In this document: piece by piece, positions 27,820 to 30,118 of the stretch
Layout: each line of letters starts with the position of its first letter
How positions within the stretch are numbered: position 1 is the first letter of the stretch
IMG/VR virus record: IMGVR_UViG_3300009169_000014
Coordinates: 1-44,740 of that record
Source: a virus
Lineage: Duplodnaviria > Heunggongvirae > Uroviricota > Caudoviricetes
Length of the DNA stretch: 44,740 nt
Strand: one strand, 5' to 3'
The notes under the pieces: model-generated
What the model saw: the letters and a program-made list of their open reading frames with translations, nothing else
The model's database searches: none
Told to the model about the DNA's origin: nothing
Position numbers and translations under genes: made by a program

Positions 27820-28650
27820 CTAGAACAACGGCGGAATCCGCGCTGGGTCAACTACGAGCCGGTACTCCACCGAACTACGCGCCAACTCACTCACCTCGAG
27901 CTTTTGGTGCACGCCGACCGTCCTGAGCTCCGTCTGGAGAACTGCCTTCACGATGAAGCGCTTGTTGTCCTTCAGGAATACGAGGATGTCGTCGGGCTCA
28001 ACCTTGGGAGCGTCCAGGATGGTTACCTGCGTGGGGCGGTACTCCGCGACACCTTGCGGTGCGATCTGTTTCGCGCTGGGGATGGTGCCTCGGCGCCCGA
28101 GGGTCAGGAGAGGCGCGAAGTAGCCCGGAGAGAAGCCTGTCCCAAAGCACGTTGAGCAGTTTGCCCGCGTAACTGTCTTGGTCGTCTTGTCCCAGCACTT
28201 CACGCAGCGGGGGCCCCAGTGCATCCGCTTCACGACGGCGATTTCAACGCCATTGAGCTTCTTGAAGGTCAGGCTCTCATCGCGAAGGATCTTCTGCTTC
28301 AGAAGTCGCTGCGGCCCTGCGAGGCGGGGCTCAACGACGGAGACAACTTCGACGGAGTAATCTCGTCCCGACGGAGGAGTGACCACGACGCGGTAAAAGA
28401 TGCCCCGCGTCAAAGAGAGCTGGTTGATCGCCCCTGCGTCCTGCGTCGATGTTGTCGGCAGAACGTCGCTGTAGTTGTAGATATCCACCCCGCCCATGAG
28501 CAGAGGCTCCCAAGGACCTTCGGGACTCCCCGAGCGATACACGTCGAAACAGTAGGAGCCAATCTCCGTGGGGTTGATGAGATCCCACTGGAAGAAGACC
28601 CCTCTTGGGAAGAGAGGAAGCAGTCGCGTGATTTCAACGGTCAGCGCCAT
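27820..28650 (-). CDS. structural protein (276 aa) with embedded zinc ribbon (CVKCWD..CSTCFGTG)
   Basis: CxxC-x13-CxxC within beta-rich protein. Confidence 0.55.
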   Translation of the reverse strand: MALTVEITRLLPLFPRGVFFQWDLINPTEIGSYCFDVYRSGSPEGPWEPLLMGGVDIYNYSDVLPTTSTQDAGAINQLSLTRGIFYRVVVTPPSGRDYSVEVVSVVEPRLAGPQRLLKQKILRDESLTFKKLNGVEIAVVKRMHWGPRCVKCWDKTTKTVTRANCSTCFGTGFSPGYFAPLLTLGRRGTIPSAKQIAPQGVAEYRPTQVTILDAPKVEPDDILVFLKDNKRFIVKAVLQTELRTVGVHQKLEVSELARSSVEYRLVVDPARIPPLF

Positions 28651-28934
28651 TAGGGAGGGACCCCCGACCCAGCCCCACCGGACCCAACGCTCGCCTGCCC
28701 TGCGTCATTGAGTAGATCGCTCGGCTTCGTCGTGCTCAGGGCGTCGAACGCCTTGCTGACGGTGCGGCTCGGGCGCCCAGACTCATTGAACGTCGTTCCA
28801 TAGGTACGGCGCCCGTTGTCGGACGACACAACGTCCTTCTTGACCGGACGAGCTGTGAGCTCGAAGTTGAAATCCGCCAGCTTGAACGCCGCCACCGCAG
28901 CGCGGATCCCGCTTTGGTAGGCGAGCTTGTTCAC
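28650..28934 (-). CDS. tandem paralog A (94 aa): N-terminal MNKLAYQSGIRAAVAAFKL + G/S-rich tail
   Basis: ATGA overlap with neighbours; shares N-terminus with 28931 and 29308 genes. Confidence 0.55.
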   Translation of the reverse strand: MNKLAYQSGIRAAVAAFKLADFNFELTARPVKKDVVSSDNGRRTYGTTFNESGRPSRTVSKAFDALSTTKPSDLLNDAGQASVGSGGAGSGVPP

Positions 28935-29311
28935 TTGCCCCCGCCTGACGTAGCGACGACTTGATTAGCCAGCCCTCCCGCTGTCGCGTTGGCCACCGCC
29001 GCGGCGGGAACGGTTCCCGTAGAAGGAACGATGCCACCAAGCGTCGCGCTTGTGCTCGGCGCTCCTCCAGGTCCTCCAGCGGATGACGACGCGCTGCTGG
29101 ACGAACTTCCGGCGACGGCGGGGGGCGCTGTCTTCGTCATGCTCGCCGTCTCCGTGGAGTTGTTTGACCCAACGGTAGACGGCGCTGTGTTCGCTCGCGT
29201 GAACCCTGTCCGAGGAGGCTTCGTCGGAGAATACGGACCTCCGGCGATCTTCTCCAAGTCGAACACCGCCATCGCGGCGGCCATACCGCTTCGATAGGCG
29301 AGCTTGTTCAT
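28931..29311 (-). CDS. tandem paralog B (126 aa): N-terminal MNKLAYRSGMAAAMAVFDL + S/T/A/G-rich tail
   Basis: conserved N-terminal 20 aa, disordered tail. Confidence 0.55.
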   Translation of the reverse strand: MNKLAYRSGMAAAMAVFDLEKIAGGPYSPTKPPRTGFTRANTAPSTVGSNNSTETASMTKTAPPAVAGSSSSSASSSAGGPGGAPSTSATLGGIVPSTGTVPAAAVANATAGGLANQVVATSGGGK

Positions 29312-29631
29312 TTCGCTACTCCCCCCGTCGTTGCTGGGTTCGCAGCGGCGGCGGTCGGAGGCGCTGAGATCGTTGCTCCCTGGGTCTGTGTCTTCCCCAT
29401 GCCCGCCACGGTCGCCGTGCCTGGGACGCCGGTACCAAGCACAGGGGAAGTGGGCAACGCCTGGTTCGGCGGGCCCGGTTTCATCGTCGCCGCCGGTGTT
29501 CCAGGGACTGTGGTCCCGATGGGAGGAACAGCGCTGAGTCCGCCTGCTGTTGGCAGTTGCGGAGCGCCACCAACACCGGGCAGCGCGGAGAACTTCTCGA
29601 GGGCGGCTCGAGTACCTTGGTGATACGCCAT
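29308..29631 (-). CDS. tandem paralog C (107 aa from ATG 29631): N-terminal MAYHQGTRAALEKF + P/G/T-rich tail
   Basis: internal ATG of ORF 29308..29898 chosen because it sits right after upstream stop and restores the shared N-terminal motif. Confidence 0.45.
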   Translation of the reverse strand: MAYHQGTRAALEKFSALPGVGGAPQLPTAGGLSAVPPIGTTVPGTPAATMKPGPPNQALPTSPVLGTGVPGTATVAGMGKTQTQGATISAPPTAAAANPATTGGVAK

Positions 29632-29635
29632 TTCG

Positions 29636-30118
29636 CTAAGAGTCACGTTGTCCGCCCGTCGTATCGGAGGTGAAACGCTTGGTGGGCGTCCCTCCTTGAA
29701 GGATAGGATTGTTCCTACCACCAGGGTCCGTGAAGGTCGACGTCTGCCCCAGCGCAGCGTTGGCGGCGAACCCCCGCGAGACATTCTGTGCGCTGTCCCG
29801 GTGATGCGTTGTCGCCACCGGGGACCCAGAGTCCCGAATAGACGAGGCCCCCGCTGGAGCAGCGGACGCTGCTCCGCCGAACTTGGTGAAGGCGTCACGG
29901 CGTCCCATGAGGTAAGCCATCTTTTCGATCTTCTTCAACTTCCGGTAGTACGACGGATCCTCGGTGAGGTGGTCCATCGCAATCTCTTCAGCGACTTCCT
30001 CTTCCGAGGTGTGTTCCTTCTCGACCTTCGCGCCTGCGTCAAGCTTCTTCTCAGGAAAAGACTCCTCCGACTTCCCCGAAGCCAGACCCCCAGGAATCTT
30101 GTCCTTGTGCGTACTCAT
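29636..30118 (-). CDS. protein (160 aa) with acidic N-terminal domain followed by internal copy of the MAYLMGRRDAFTKF motif and G/S/T-rich tail
   Basis: coding bias throughout; internal motif at residue 67. Confidence 0.55.
   Translation of the reverse strand: MSTHKDKIPGGLASGKSEESFPEKKLDAGAKVEKEHTSEEEVAEEIAMDHLTEDPSYYRKLKKIEKMAYLMGRRDAFTKFGGAASAAPAGASSIRDSGSPVATTHHRDSAQNVSRGFAANAALGQTSTFTDPGGRNNPILQGGTPTKRFTSDTTGGQRDS

What the first reader, a model, noticed from the sequence alone, without database searches (positions are those of the whole stretch)
28650..30118. Tandem paralog array sharing an N-terminal MxKLAYxxGxxAAxxxF helix with disordered tails
Three adjacent small genes begin with near-identical N-termini: MNKLAYQSGIRAAVAAFKL, MNKLAYRSGMAAAMAVFDL and MAYHQGTRAALEKF. 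Each continues into a G/S/T/P/A-rich low-complexity tail. The next gene upstream carries the same motif internally (KMAYLMGRRDAFTKF) after an acidic N-domain.
Basis: seen in the sequence. Interest (0 to 1): 0.65.

Follow-up and report, generated by a model that had tools for sequence, protein, structure and literature searches.

The report
Shared N-terminal docking helix, phage tail-module proteins
A group of small, mostly unstructured proteins in the neck and tail gene block of an uncultivated ~187-kb phage all start with the same short helix, which behaves in evolution like a portable address tag, one per protein; its partner and purpose are still unknown.

Summary
The core pattern AY..G...A occurs six times in the six-frame translation of the window (0.57 expected). 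All six are in minus-strand late genes: the four reported genes (A-D, 28650-30118), E (23306-23575, between sheath and tube genes) and F (16098-17360). Five sit at the N-terminus; the sixth follows a DUF5661 domain in A.

None of B-F matches Pfam, PHROGs or NCBIfam, and E found nothing in cultured phages. The tails are non-globular but under purifying selection (dN/dS about 0.1-0.3).

Relatives show a rule of one helix per polypeptide:
- B and C are a single gene in four related contigs. The window's split inserted a stop, a start and a helix, copied from the C/D junction.
- Where A and D are fused (P0099), D's helix is gone.
- Effector-type domains (DUF5661, InPase) are found fused just upstream of the helix.

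Only the helix is detectably homologous between A and D, so "paralog array" holds for the helix module, not for whole genes.

Best reading (about 0.4, inferred): a docking tag that recruits these polypeptides into the virion, possibly for ejection. This resembles the T4 capsid-targeting sequence in logic but not in sequence. No experiment supports any function.

The parts
29636..30118 (-). Gene A (160 aa). It has a DUF5661 domain (residues about 25-66), then the helix (KMAYLMGRRDAFTKF, residues 66-80), then a conserved polar tail of about 80 aa.
   Evidence: Pfam PF18905, E 1.9e-10. AF2 gives a confident DUF5661 domain plus one continuous helix at residues 57-80, with the tail mostly at pLDDT below 50. 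Homologues fall into two groups: 9 clusters with DUF5661, and about 23 clusters of 94-96 aa that start directly MNxxAY. The start overlaps the stop of the upstream 164-aa gene (ATGA).
29873..29929 (-). Helix-coding segment of A (IEKMAYLMGRRDAFTKFGG).
29308..29646 (-). Gene B (112 aa counted from GTG 29646; 107 aa if counted from ATG 29631). It is the N-terminal half of the ancestral BC gene and carries its original helix, MTLSEMAYHQGTRAALEKF.
   Evidence: It is colinear with residues 1 to about 110 of the single BC gene of L002, L003, L006 and L007. The GTG start is supported by orthologous starts M/V-TLNELAY. Its stop overlaps C's start (ATGA).
28931..29311 (-). Gene C (126 aa). It is the C-terminal half of the ancestral BC gene and now carries its own, newly acquired helix, MNKLAYRSGMAAAMAVF.
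   Evidence: Alignment to BC orthologues shows a 22-codon insertion exactly at the helix. The exact protein is also found on an independently assembled Logan contig, SRR5468428_16102.
29254..29334 (-). Inserted junction copy of about 81 nt: the new 3' end of B (..TTGGVAK), a stop, a start, and C's helix.
   Evidence: Local DNA alignment to 28877-28954 scores 35, against a null mean of 9.1 and SD of 4.7. The C and D helix-coding DNA is 77% identical over 60 nt, against 37-52% for the other helix pairs.
28877..28954 (-). Source junction: the end of C (..TSGGGK), its stop, D's GTG start, and D's helix.
28650..28934 (-). Gene D (94 aa, GTG start). It has the helix MNKLAYQSGIRAAVAAFKLA followed by a conserved polar tail.
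   Evidence: Orthologues of 87 aa are present in L002, L003, L006 and L007, with 78% mean column identity. dN/dS is 0.07-0.22 where it can be computed. Its stop overlaps the start of the 276-aa gene (TAATG).
23306..23575 (-). Gene E (89 aa), a fifth member. It starts MFRMAYAQGAQDALNKY and has two short Gly-rich hydrophobic segments (AGLGLIAAP and AGLGLLIGT). It lies between the sheath-proximal 333-aa gene and the tube-like 251-aa gene.
   Evidence: A 32-sequence family alignment has 74% mean column identity, with invariant H53, H70 and H89. AF2 gives an all-helical model at low confidence, pLDDT 56. The identical protein, P0103, is on a 187,070-bp contig.
16098..17360 (-). Gene F (420 aa), a sixth and divergent member. 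It starts MEHDAYKLGSLDAVLELGL, followed by glycine-zipper-like hydrophobic segments and a Pro/Ala-rich region.
   Evidence: It holds the sixth AY..G...A match, placed exactly at the N-terminus. The HMM score alone is weak, 4.9 bits. The orthologue in L017 keeps MESEAYKLGTLDAALELGI.
30115..30609 (-). Context: the 164-aa gene immediately upstream of the array, in the position of a head-tail adaptor.
   Evidence: It is conserved in L002, L003 and L015 and is 30% identical to Arash gp233, which that record annotates as 'structural protein'. There is no Pfam or PDB sequence hit. The adaptor role is inferred from position and the N-terminal motif only.
27820..28650 (-). Context: the 276-aa gene with a CxxC...CxxC zinc-ribbon-like motif, immediately downstream of the array.
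   Evidence: It is 80-88% identical in relatives and 27% identical to Arash gp234 'structural protein'. dN/dS is 0.05-0.08.
24582..27035 (-). Context: the tail sheath-like gene. The true start is probably the ATG at 27035 (MAAQRPVVLVFQEF), not the TTG at 27101.
   Evidence: Weak PHROG tail-sheath hit. tblastn gives 32% identity to Arash gp236. Orthologues start MAATRPVVLVFQEF.

Best explanation
The roughly 17-residue helix has the consensus M-x-x-x-A-Y-x-x-G-x-x-x-A-x-x-(K)-F. All conserved residues fall on one face: a stripe of small residues (A5, G9, A12/13, A16) bracketed by aromatic Y6 and F17. I read it as a portable docking or address module.

Proposed mechanism: it packs tightly against a helix of a common partner in the late (virion) assembly pathway. 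This recruits otherwise non-globular polypeptides (the tails of A, B, C and D), small Gly-zipper proteins (E, F) and occasionally appended effector-type domains (DUF5661 here, InPase in another phage) into the particle. They are then most probably released or ejected at infection.

Shown:
- The motif, its position and its one-sided conservation.
- The rule of one helix per polypeptide across gene splits and fusions.
- The location of the genes in the neck and tail block, with overlapping stop and start codons.
- Purifying selection on the tails.

Inferred: that the helix docks to a partner, that the proteins end up in virions, and that they are ejected. The partner is not identified.
For: 1. 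Specificity. There are six AY..G...A matches against 0.57 expected, all in late-strand genes. Five are at the N-terminus.

2. One-sided conservation. A5, Y6, G9, A12, A13, A16 and F17 span only 20-160 degrees on a helical wheel. The segment is modelled as a helix.

3. Modularity.
- Between the A and D families only the helix is homologous.
- BC is one gene with one helix in four relatives. The window's split gave the downstream half a new helix, copied from the C/D junction. The same split is seen in an independent assembly.
- P0099 is a natural A+D fusion that kept A's helix and lost D's. It sits at the same syntenic slot.
- P0010 has about 90 aa inserted between the helix and the tail.

4. 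Effector-type domains fused directly upstream of the helix.
- DUF5661 is fused in A.
- Elsewhere DUF5661 is fused to ART-PolyVal (P0048).
- In L012 an InPase domain is followed by MENFYKLGMRLAFATAGVKL.
- Iyer et al. predict that such domains are packaged and injected (PMC5512222).

5. Context.
- Genes from the 164-aa gene through A, B, C and D to the 276-aa gene are linked by 1-11-nt overlaps.
- The block lies between an adaptor-position gene and the sheath. E lies between the sheath and tube genes.
- The Arash homologues of the flanking genes are annotated 'structural protein'.
- A second phage clade (L016, L011) has a helix protein about 4.5 kb from its gp5-like spike gene.

6. The tails are constrained, with dN/dS 0.1-0.3.

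7. Precedent. T4 internal proteins share only a capsid-targeting sequence (PMC3012670).
Against: - There is no proteomic or structural evidence that any member is in a virion.
- In L012 the helix proteins sit among nucleotide-metabolism and anti-defence-type genes (ThyX, DHH, Ro60, AcrVA2-like), not in an obvious structural block.
- No cleavage motif follows the helix, and no prohead protease was recognised in the window.
- The helix works both at the N-terminus and internally, unlike the T4 capsid-targeting sequence.
- P0096 carries two helices in one polypeptide, an exception to the one-helix rule.
- The link to 'injected' proteins rests on domain co-occurrence and on a computational prediction in the literature.
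- F's membership rests on a pattern match plus one orthologue; its HMM score is 4.9 bits.
Confidence: 0.4

Rival explanations
1. Permanent structural accessories of the neck or tail. The helix anchors each protein to a symmetric neck or tail component. The extended conserved tails lie along, or project from, the neck or sheath as cement, staples or whisker-like bristles, and they stay on the particle.
For: - The gene position lies between the adaptor-position gene and the 276-aa, 232-aa and sheath genes, and between sheath and tube.
- The genes have overlapping stops and starts with these neighbours.
- Conserved but non-globular tails are typical of peptides that order only on binding.
- T4 places its whisker gene (wac) next to the neck genes; this comes from my own knowledge.
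Against: - The gene number at this slot is fluid: 1 gene in L015, 3 in L002, L003, L006 and L007, and 4 in the window. That fits fixed-stoichiometry structural parts poorly.
- Fusions of enzyme-like domains (DUF5661, InPase) and the Gly-zipper members E and F are not expected of cement proteins.
- The distantly related phage Arash, and possibly Vibrio phages whose neck regions were not read, have homologues of the flanking genes. Arash has no such array.
Confidence: 0.2
2. A helix-helix oligomerisation module acting in the infected cell, not the virion. The small-xxx-small stripe pairs the helices with each other or with glycine-zipper helices (E, F, the 333-aa and 390-aa proteins; the L012 Gly-zipper proteins). 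This would form a membrane-associated late complex, for example for envelope remodelling, exclusion or lysis control.
For: - A5-G9-A13 is a classic tight-packing stripe, read directly from the sequence.
- Helix-bearing genes co-occur with Gly-zipper-rich proteins in both the window and L012, sometimes in the same polypeptide (F, E, P0096).
- P0096 has two tandem helices that could pair.
- The L012 context is not structural.
- A lysis-like cassette lies nearby in the window.
Against: - No segment reaches transmembrane-like hydropathy in A-E; the maximum KD19 is 1.39.
- A-D have no hydrophobic segments at all.
- The tight operon linkage is with neck and tail genes.
- The one-helix-per-polypeptide rule fits independent docking better than a fixed bundle, because adding a helix through the B/C split would change the stoichiometry.
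Confidence: 0.2
3. Assembly chaperones. The helix binds a tail or neck subunit transiently, as tail assembly chaperones do. The proteins are absent from the finished particle and are not delivered to the host.
For: They are small late proteins encoded beside sheath, tube and neck genes, and E sits between the sheath and tube genes, roughly where contractile-tailed phages keep tail chaperones. No enzymatic domain is found in B-E.
Against: - No frameshift architecture is present.
- The tails are long, conserved and non-globular, unlike known chaperones.
- Recurrent fusion of effector-type domains upstream of the helix is hard to explain.
- Six members is a large number for a chaperone role.
Confidence: 0.1
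4. Not a functional feature: the motif arises by chance in low-complexity, GC-rich ORFs, or the ORFs are spurious.
For: The tails are low in complexity, the window is about 60% GC and produces many long spurious ORFs on both strands, and there are no database family hits.
Against: - Six matches occur against 0.57 expected, all in frame at gene starts.
- Orthologues exist in dozens of metagenomic clusters.
- dN/dS is 0.1-0.3 while synonymous sites are near saturation.
- Synteny is conserved.
Confidence: 0.02

Closest known systems
Capsid targeting sequence (CTS) of bacteriophage T4 internal proteins (IPI, IPII, IPIII, Alt)
   Same: A short N-terminal peptide is the only element shared by otherwise unrelated small phage proteins, and it acts as an address for incorporation into the particle. 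Foreign proteins can be attached to it (PMC3012670). The one-helix-per-polypeptide rule and the fused effector domains seen here follow the same logic.
   Different: - There is no sequence similarity. The T4 consensus, from my memory, is MKTYQEFIAE, with cleavage after Glu by gp21.
- No cleavage motif or prohead protease was recognised here.
- This helix also works internally, after DUF5661 or InPase.
- The genes sit in the neck and tail block, not with head genes.
- Packaging has not been demonstrated.
Polyvalent or MuF-anchored injected effector proteins of phages (Iyer, Burroughs, Anand, de Souza, Aravind 2017; PMC5512222)
   Same: Effector-type domains (ART-PolyVal, 2H phosphoesterase, InPase) are joined to a virion-anchoring module and encoded among late genes. 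DUF5661 co-occurs with ART-PolyVal (P0048), and InPase is fused to the helix in L012.
   Different: No MuF or portal anchor is present. Gene A has a single small domain and is not polyvalent. The anchor proposed here is a 17-residue helix plus a non-globular tail. DUF5661 itself has no known function; no paper mentions it and the model has no structural match in the PDB.
N-terminal packaging signals of extracellular contractile injection system cargo (Photorhabdus PVC and similar); encapsulation peptides of bacterial microcompartments and encapsulins
   Same: These are short terminal peptides, joined to the cargo by a flexible linker, that dock diverse cargo onto a common shell or tube component. 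In the eCIS case the machine is a contractile tail. This comparison is from my own knowledge and was not checked in the literature here.
   Different: There is no sequence relation. The eCIS signals are described as roughly 50-residue disordered regions, not a small-residue-stripe helix. No loading ATPase or shell partner is identified here.
Small-xxx-small (GxxxG/A, glycine-zipper) helix-packing motifs
   Same: The A5-G9-A13 spacing lies on one helical face and is flanked by aromatic residues, which is the geometry that allows very close helix-helix contact.
   Different: Classic examples are transmembrane helices. This helix is amphipathic to polar (mean hydrophobicity about 0-0.37, no TM-like window) and sits on soluble tails.

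Membership tests
Pfam PF18905 (DUF5661), N-terminal domain of gene A only | Match to the family HMM above the gathering score (27 bits). | tested here: met
   41.4 bits, E 1.9e-10, residues 25-66. AF2 gives a confident small helical domain.
Any described protein family, for the helix and tails of B, C, D and E | Significant match in Pfam-A, PHROGs v4 or NCBIfam. | tested here: not met
   No hits at E <= 0.1 in any of the three libraries. tblastn of E and of the remote member P0096 against 50,697 cultured-phage records found nothing. B, C and D were not queried there.
T4-type CTS internal proteins | N-terminal consensus resembling MKTYQEFIAE, ending in a Glu cleavage site for the prohead protease. 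| tested here: not met
   The helix consensus is MxxxAYxxGxxxAxxKF with no conserved Glu after it. The T4 consensus is quoted from memory.
T4-type CTS internal proteins | Packaged inside the prohead through the scaffolding core, with the tag removed on maturation. | not testable with these tools
   This needs virion proteomics or N-terminomics.
Polyvalent proteins (Iyer et al. 2017) | Two or more disparate effector domains in one polypeptide, with a virion or transfer anchor such as MuF, portal or relaxase. | tested here: not met
   Gene A has one recognisable domain and no MuF or portal domain. The only link is that DUF5661 and InPase occur in such proteins.
Tail assembly chaperone / tape measure module | A pair of overlapping ORFs joined by a programmed frameshift upstream of a long helical tape measure gene. 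| tested here: not met
   Gene overlaps are ordinary stop/start overlaps of 1-11 nt, and no long helical gene follows.
Sec/Tat signal peptides or membrane anchors | A hydrophobic h-region of at least 10-15 residues, or a TM-like segment, after a basic n-region. | tested here: not met
   The maximum 19-residue Kyte-Doolittle mean is 0.68-1.39 in A-E. The helix contains Q/S/R/D.
Whole-gene paralogue family (A, B/C and D as duplicates of one gene) | Detectable homology along the whole length, not only in one module. | tested here: not met
   hhalign of the D family against the A-tail family aligns only columns 1-20. B and C are halves of one gene.

The most novel reading that the evidence does not exclude
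The helix is the loading signal of a phage 'ejectosome'. In this reading it marks a defined set of late proteins for loading into the particle of ~156-190-kb contractile-tailed phages and for delivery into the host ahead of, or with, the DNA. The set comprises unfolded polar polypeptides (A-D), Gly-zipper membrane-type proteins (E, F, possibly the 333-aa and 390-aa proteins) and small effector domains (DUF5661, InPase). This would be a phage counterpart of the eCIS cargo signal or the T4 capsid-targeting sequence, with an unrelated sequence and a natural record of how cargo is gained, split and fused.
Probability: 0.2. Interest if true: 0.8.

Novelty: new variant of a known kind. Interest (0 to 1): 0.55.

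Why it matters
If the helix is a virion-incorporation tag, it gives a sequence-searchable marker for packaged or ejected proteins in a large clade of uncultivated phages whose late genes are otherwise almost all unannotated. It would also be a compact 17-residue handle that could load foreign proteins into phage particles.

The natural experiments seen here are an unusually clean evolutionary demonstration that a short peptide acts as a per-polypeptide address:
- a gene split that re-acquired the helix;
- a gene fusion that dropped it;
- effector domains fused in front of it.

The finding also links DUF5661, a domain of unknown function that is widespread in metagenomic sequences, to this delivery context. 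If the proteins turn out not to be in virions, what remains is a new, uncharacterised small-protein family.

Tried and rejected
- Pfam, PHROGs and NCBIfam scans of the array and its neighbours gave nothing except DUF5661 in A, a weak sheath hit and a weak gp5 C-terminal hit.
- blastn and tblastn against cultured phages found only a distant sheath relative (Arash and three Vibrio phages). Nothing was found for E, P0096, the 465-aa protein or the 633-aa protein.
- PDB sequence searches with profiles of the 164-aa, 276-aa and 232-aa neighbours and with A gave nothing significant.
- Foldseek of the A model against the PDB gave no match.
- A helix-only profile in the word-indexed protein search returned only two proteins.
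- The exhaustive representative search was meant to use the helix alone, but the profile kept the A-tail columns (95 positions). It therefore mainly recovered A-type proteins. It did yield P0096, P0099 and the 'FALAPPTQVD' subfamily.
- A DNA pattern for MNKxAYxxGxxxAxxxF in IMG/VR found nothing, because many members start with GTG.
- The search for related loci with F found nothing. The F orthologue was reached through the 581-aa neighbour instead.
- Literature searches for DUF5661 and for phage Arash returned nothing.
- I rejected tail homology between A and D, which a MAFFT alignment had suggested, after hhalign failed to support it.
- I rejected signal-peptide and transmembrane readings and the spurious-ORF reading.
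Full report
**What is there**

All genes in the region are on the minus strand. They run, in the direction of transcription: a 164-aa gene (30609..30115), A (30118..29636, 160 aa), B (29646..29308), C (29311..28931, 126 aa), D (28934..28650, 94 aa, GTG start), a 276-aa gene with a CxxC...CxxC motif (28650..27820), a 232-aa gene, and an ~817-aa sheath-like gene.

Consecutive genes overlap by 1-11 nt (ATGA, GTGA, TAATG), so they look like one tightly linked late operon.

B most likely starts five codons earlier, at GTG 29646 (MTLSEMAYHQG...), because its orthologues start M/V-TLNELAY.

The N-terminal part of A is Pfam DUF5661 (E 1.9e-10).

**Is it more than chance?**

- The strict pattern AY..G.{2,4}A.{2,5}F occurs four times in the six-frame translation, all in A-D.
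- The core AY..G...A occurs six times against 0.57 expected from amino-acid shuffles, with a maximum of 3 in 200 shuffles.
  - E (23575..23306, 89 aa, MFRMAYAQGAQDALNKY) lies between the gene after the sheath and the tube-like 251-aa gene.
  - F (17360..16098, 420 aa, MEHDAYKLGSLDAVLELGL) lies near the end of the tail and baseplate block. Its orthologue in a relative keeps MESEAYKLGTLDAALELGI.
- Five of the six motifs are within a few residues of the start codon. The sixth directly follows DUF5661.
- On a helical wheel the conserved residues (A5, Y6, G9, A12, A13, A16, F17) occupy a single 140-degree face: a stripe of small residues bracketed by two aromatics.
- AlphaFold2 with a 42-sequence alignment models residues 57-80 of A as one helix at pLDDT about 80-86. 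Most of the tail is below 50.
- E is modelled as all-helical but at low confidence, pLDDT 56.

**Are the genes real and constrained?**

- Homologues of the A tail form about 30 clusters at 90% identity.
- The E family has 32 sequences with 74% mean column identity.
- Five related loci keep the same gene order.
- Between these loci synonymous sites are close to saturation (pS 0.42-0.88). Non-synonymous differences stay at 0.11-0.42, giving dN/dS of about 0.1-0.3 for the tails. The neighbouring 276-aa gene shows 0.05-0.08.
- The tails are 49-73% G/S/T/P/A in A-D. They are nevertheless conserved sequences, not drifting spacers.

**Context**

- The window has no DNA match among cultured phages.
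- The sheath-like protein is 32% identical to a 'structural protein' of Salmonella phage Arash. The Arash homologues of the 164-, 276- and 232-aa genes carry the same annotation.
- Downstream of the sheath lie the 333-aa gene, E, a tube-like 251-aa gene and a 533-aa protein with weak T4 gp5 C-terminal repeats.
- Upstream lie a probable capsid gene, scaffold-like genes, fibre-like genes and a lysis-like cassette.
- Related contigs are 156-190 kb, and several are IMG/VR viral genomes. The exact E protein is on a 187,070-bp contig.
- The window is therefore part of a large, uncultivated, contractile-tailed phage.

**The key result: one helix per polypeptide**

1. *A split that gained a helix.* In L002, L003, L006 and L007 a single 205-208-aa gene stands where the window has B and C. 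The window's B+C is colinear with it, apart from minor indels, except for a 22-codon insertion, '...K* MNKLAYRSGMAAAMAVFDLEKI'.
   - This is a stop, a start and a new helix.
   - The helix-coding DNA of C is 77% identical to that of D, against 37-52% for all other helix pairs.
   - The similarity runs about 25 nt upstream into the preceding gene's 3' end (TTGGVAK* against TSGGGK*).
   - So the insert is a copy of the C-end/D-start junction.
   - The same split protein is on an independently assembled contig.

2. *A fusion that lost a helix.* In a more distant relative (L015) the whole slot between the 164-aa and 276-aa homologues holds one gene, P0099.
   - Residues 1-89 match the A family (E 3e-10).
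   - Residues 91-164 match the D family from column 15 onward (E 1.7e-7).
   - A and D are fused, and D's helix is gone.

3. *Domains placed around the helix.*
   - A occurs with DUF5661 in 9 clusters and without it in about 23 clusters that start MNxxAY. The fusion point is exactly the original Met.
   - P0010 has about 90 residues inserted between the helix and the tail.

4. *Homology limited to the helix.* Profile-profile comparison of the D and A-tail families aligns only the 20 helix columns (E 8e-6).

P0096, with two tandem helices, is an exception to the rule.

**Wider distribution**

- An exhaustive profile search found a subfamily of 70-100-aa proteins of the form 'MIRxAYxxGxRxAxxKFALxPPTQVD...'.
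  - One member lies about 4.5 kb from a gp5-like spike gene on a 156-kb viral contig.
  - One member lies on a short contig of the same kind.
- A 24-kb phage contig (L012) holds several members of a second flavour, AYxLGVKLAFASxGL.
  - There the genes sit among ThyX, DHH, Ro60 and AcrVA2-like genes, not in a clear structural block.
  - An InPase-domain protein carries the helix right after the enzyme domain ('...KVAMENFYKLGMRLAFATAGVKL').
  - Its gene overlaps the first of two helix-protein genes on the same strand, and those two overlap each other.

**Interpretation**

The evolutionary behaviour is what one expects of an address or docking peptide. Each separately translated polypeptide needs its own copy. 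A fused polypeptide needs only one. Unrelated payloads can be placed before or after it.

The small-residue stripe suggests close packing against another helix.

The gene context suggests that the destination is the virion. So does the recurrent fusion of DUF5661 and InPase:
- DUF5661 is elsewhere joined to ART-PolyVal.
- Iyer et al. predict that ART-PolyVal- and InPase-type domains are packaged and injected (PMC5512222).

The unfolded tails and the Gly-zipper members would suit ejection. The closest analogy in logic is the T4 capsid-targeting sequence (PMC3012670).

None of this is demonstrated. No partner is identified, no cleavage site or protease is recognised, and the L012 context argues for caution.

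I put about 0.4 on virion incorporation through a docking helix. The rivals are permanent neck or tail accessory (0.2), intracellular helix-helix or Gly-zipper complex (0.2), assembly chaperone (0.1) and artefact (0.02). The remainder is left for explanations not considered.

**Novelty and verdict**

No described family covers B-F. E and the remote member P0096 found nothing in cultured phages. No paper mentions DUF5661.

The kind of thing, a shared terminal address peptide on diverse phage proteins, is known. This one is unrelated in sequence, tolerates an internal position, and sits in the tail module. I therefore rate it a new variant of a known kind, of moderate interest, and directly testable by virion proteomics and multimer prediction.

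Noticed in passing
window 23577-24578 (-); L002 13165-13554; L003 13474-13911; L006 10343-11083; L007 10416-10844: The gene right after the sheath has a conserved C-terminal ~70-aa HTH-like domain (weak Pfam HTH_23 and PHROG small-terminase hits). Its N-terminal part is hypervariable, so the protein is 129-333 aa long. In the window the N-terminal part is rich in glycine-zipper segments. It begins MDKATYNLIHKLAGDGED, with an internal repeat QLQLIQKLAG. L006 has MNKAAYELIQKIA, which looks like a degenerate version of the helix.
   Followed up: partly
window 14929-16101 (-): A 390-aa protein starts MNEYYSKLAGEDDALSAFGL. This has a GxxxAxxxFGL pattern and a 'KLAG' motif like the 333-aa protein, so it may be a further divergent helix bearer. 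The partial orthologue in L017 keeps AGESAALDAFGLSHGTP.
   Followed up: partly
window 32436-33929 (-): A lysis-like cassette is embedded between fibre-like and neck genes. It comprises a 170-aa protein with weak permuted-papain amidase (Peptidase_C92) and phrog_1128 hits, a 118-aa protein with an N-terminal hydrophobic segment and a coiled coil, a 103-aa multi-hydrophobic protein (holin-like), and a 105-aa coiled-coil protein.
   Followed up: no
L003 7159-8004 and L004 7159-8004: An HNH endonuclease gene (Pfam HNH, HNH_5) is inserted exactly between the 164-aa gene and gene A in one relative. This is the same junction where DUF5661 is gained or lost, which suggests an insertion hot spot.
   Followed up: no
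L012 11968-12720 (-), 16115-16444 (+): In an unrelated 24-kb phage contig, an InPase-domain protein carries a helix of the family after the enzyme domain. A 109-aa DUF5661 protein starts with a hydrophobic LGFFLGLCAAGLSKLAA segment. Several neighbouring proteins (130, 222 and 249 aa) are glycine-zipper rich.
   Followed up: partly
window 27036-27101 and 22467-22535 (-): The mechanical ORF starts are too far upstream for two genes. The sheath-like gene probably starts at ATG 27035 (MAAQRPVVLVFQEF). The spike-like 533-aa gene probably starts at ATG 22466 (MNKNPRLPKG). Both match the orthologues' starts.
   Followed up: partly
window 31607-31984 (-): A 125-aa ORF fills the gap between the 169-aa and 183-aa genes. 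It has Pro-rich near-repeats (GKASLANPVPLPPRGAAV and GKATLENPVPVAPKGSAV). Relatives have a ~300-nt uncalled gap here. It is unclear whether this is a gene.
   Followed up: no
window 42726-43400 and 41850-42215 (-): Two acidic, helical, scaffold-like proteins lie upstream of the probable 302-aa capsid gene. The 224-aa protein has 'EKTAS' repeats. The upstream 449-aa protein also contains Gly-zipper-like segments.
   Followed up: no
window 23306-23575 (-), E family alignment A12: Across 32 sequences the E family has invariant His53, His70 and a C-terminal His89, plus an internal duplication (NVAGLGLIAAP and DLAGLGLLIGT). This hints at metal binding or symmetric packing.
   Followed up: no
window 31056-31607 (-): The 183-aa protein upstream of the neck genes reads like an FN3 or Ig-like decoration domain (YYRLIAIDTVAQYSVPS). 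No Pfam hit was obtained.
   Followed up: no
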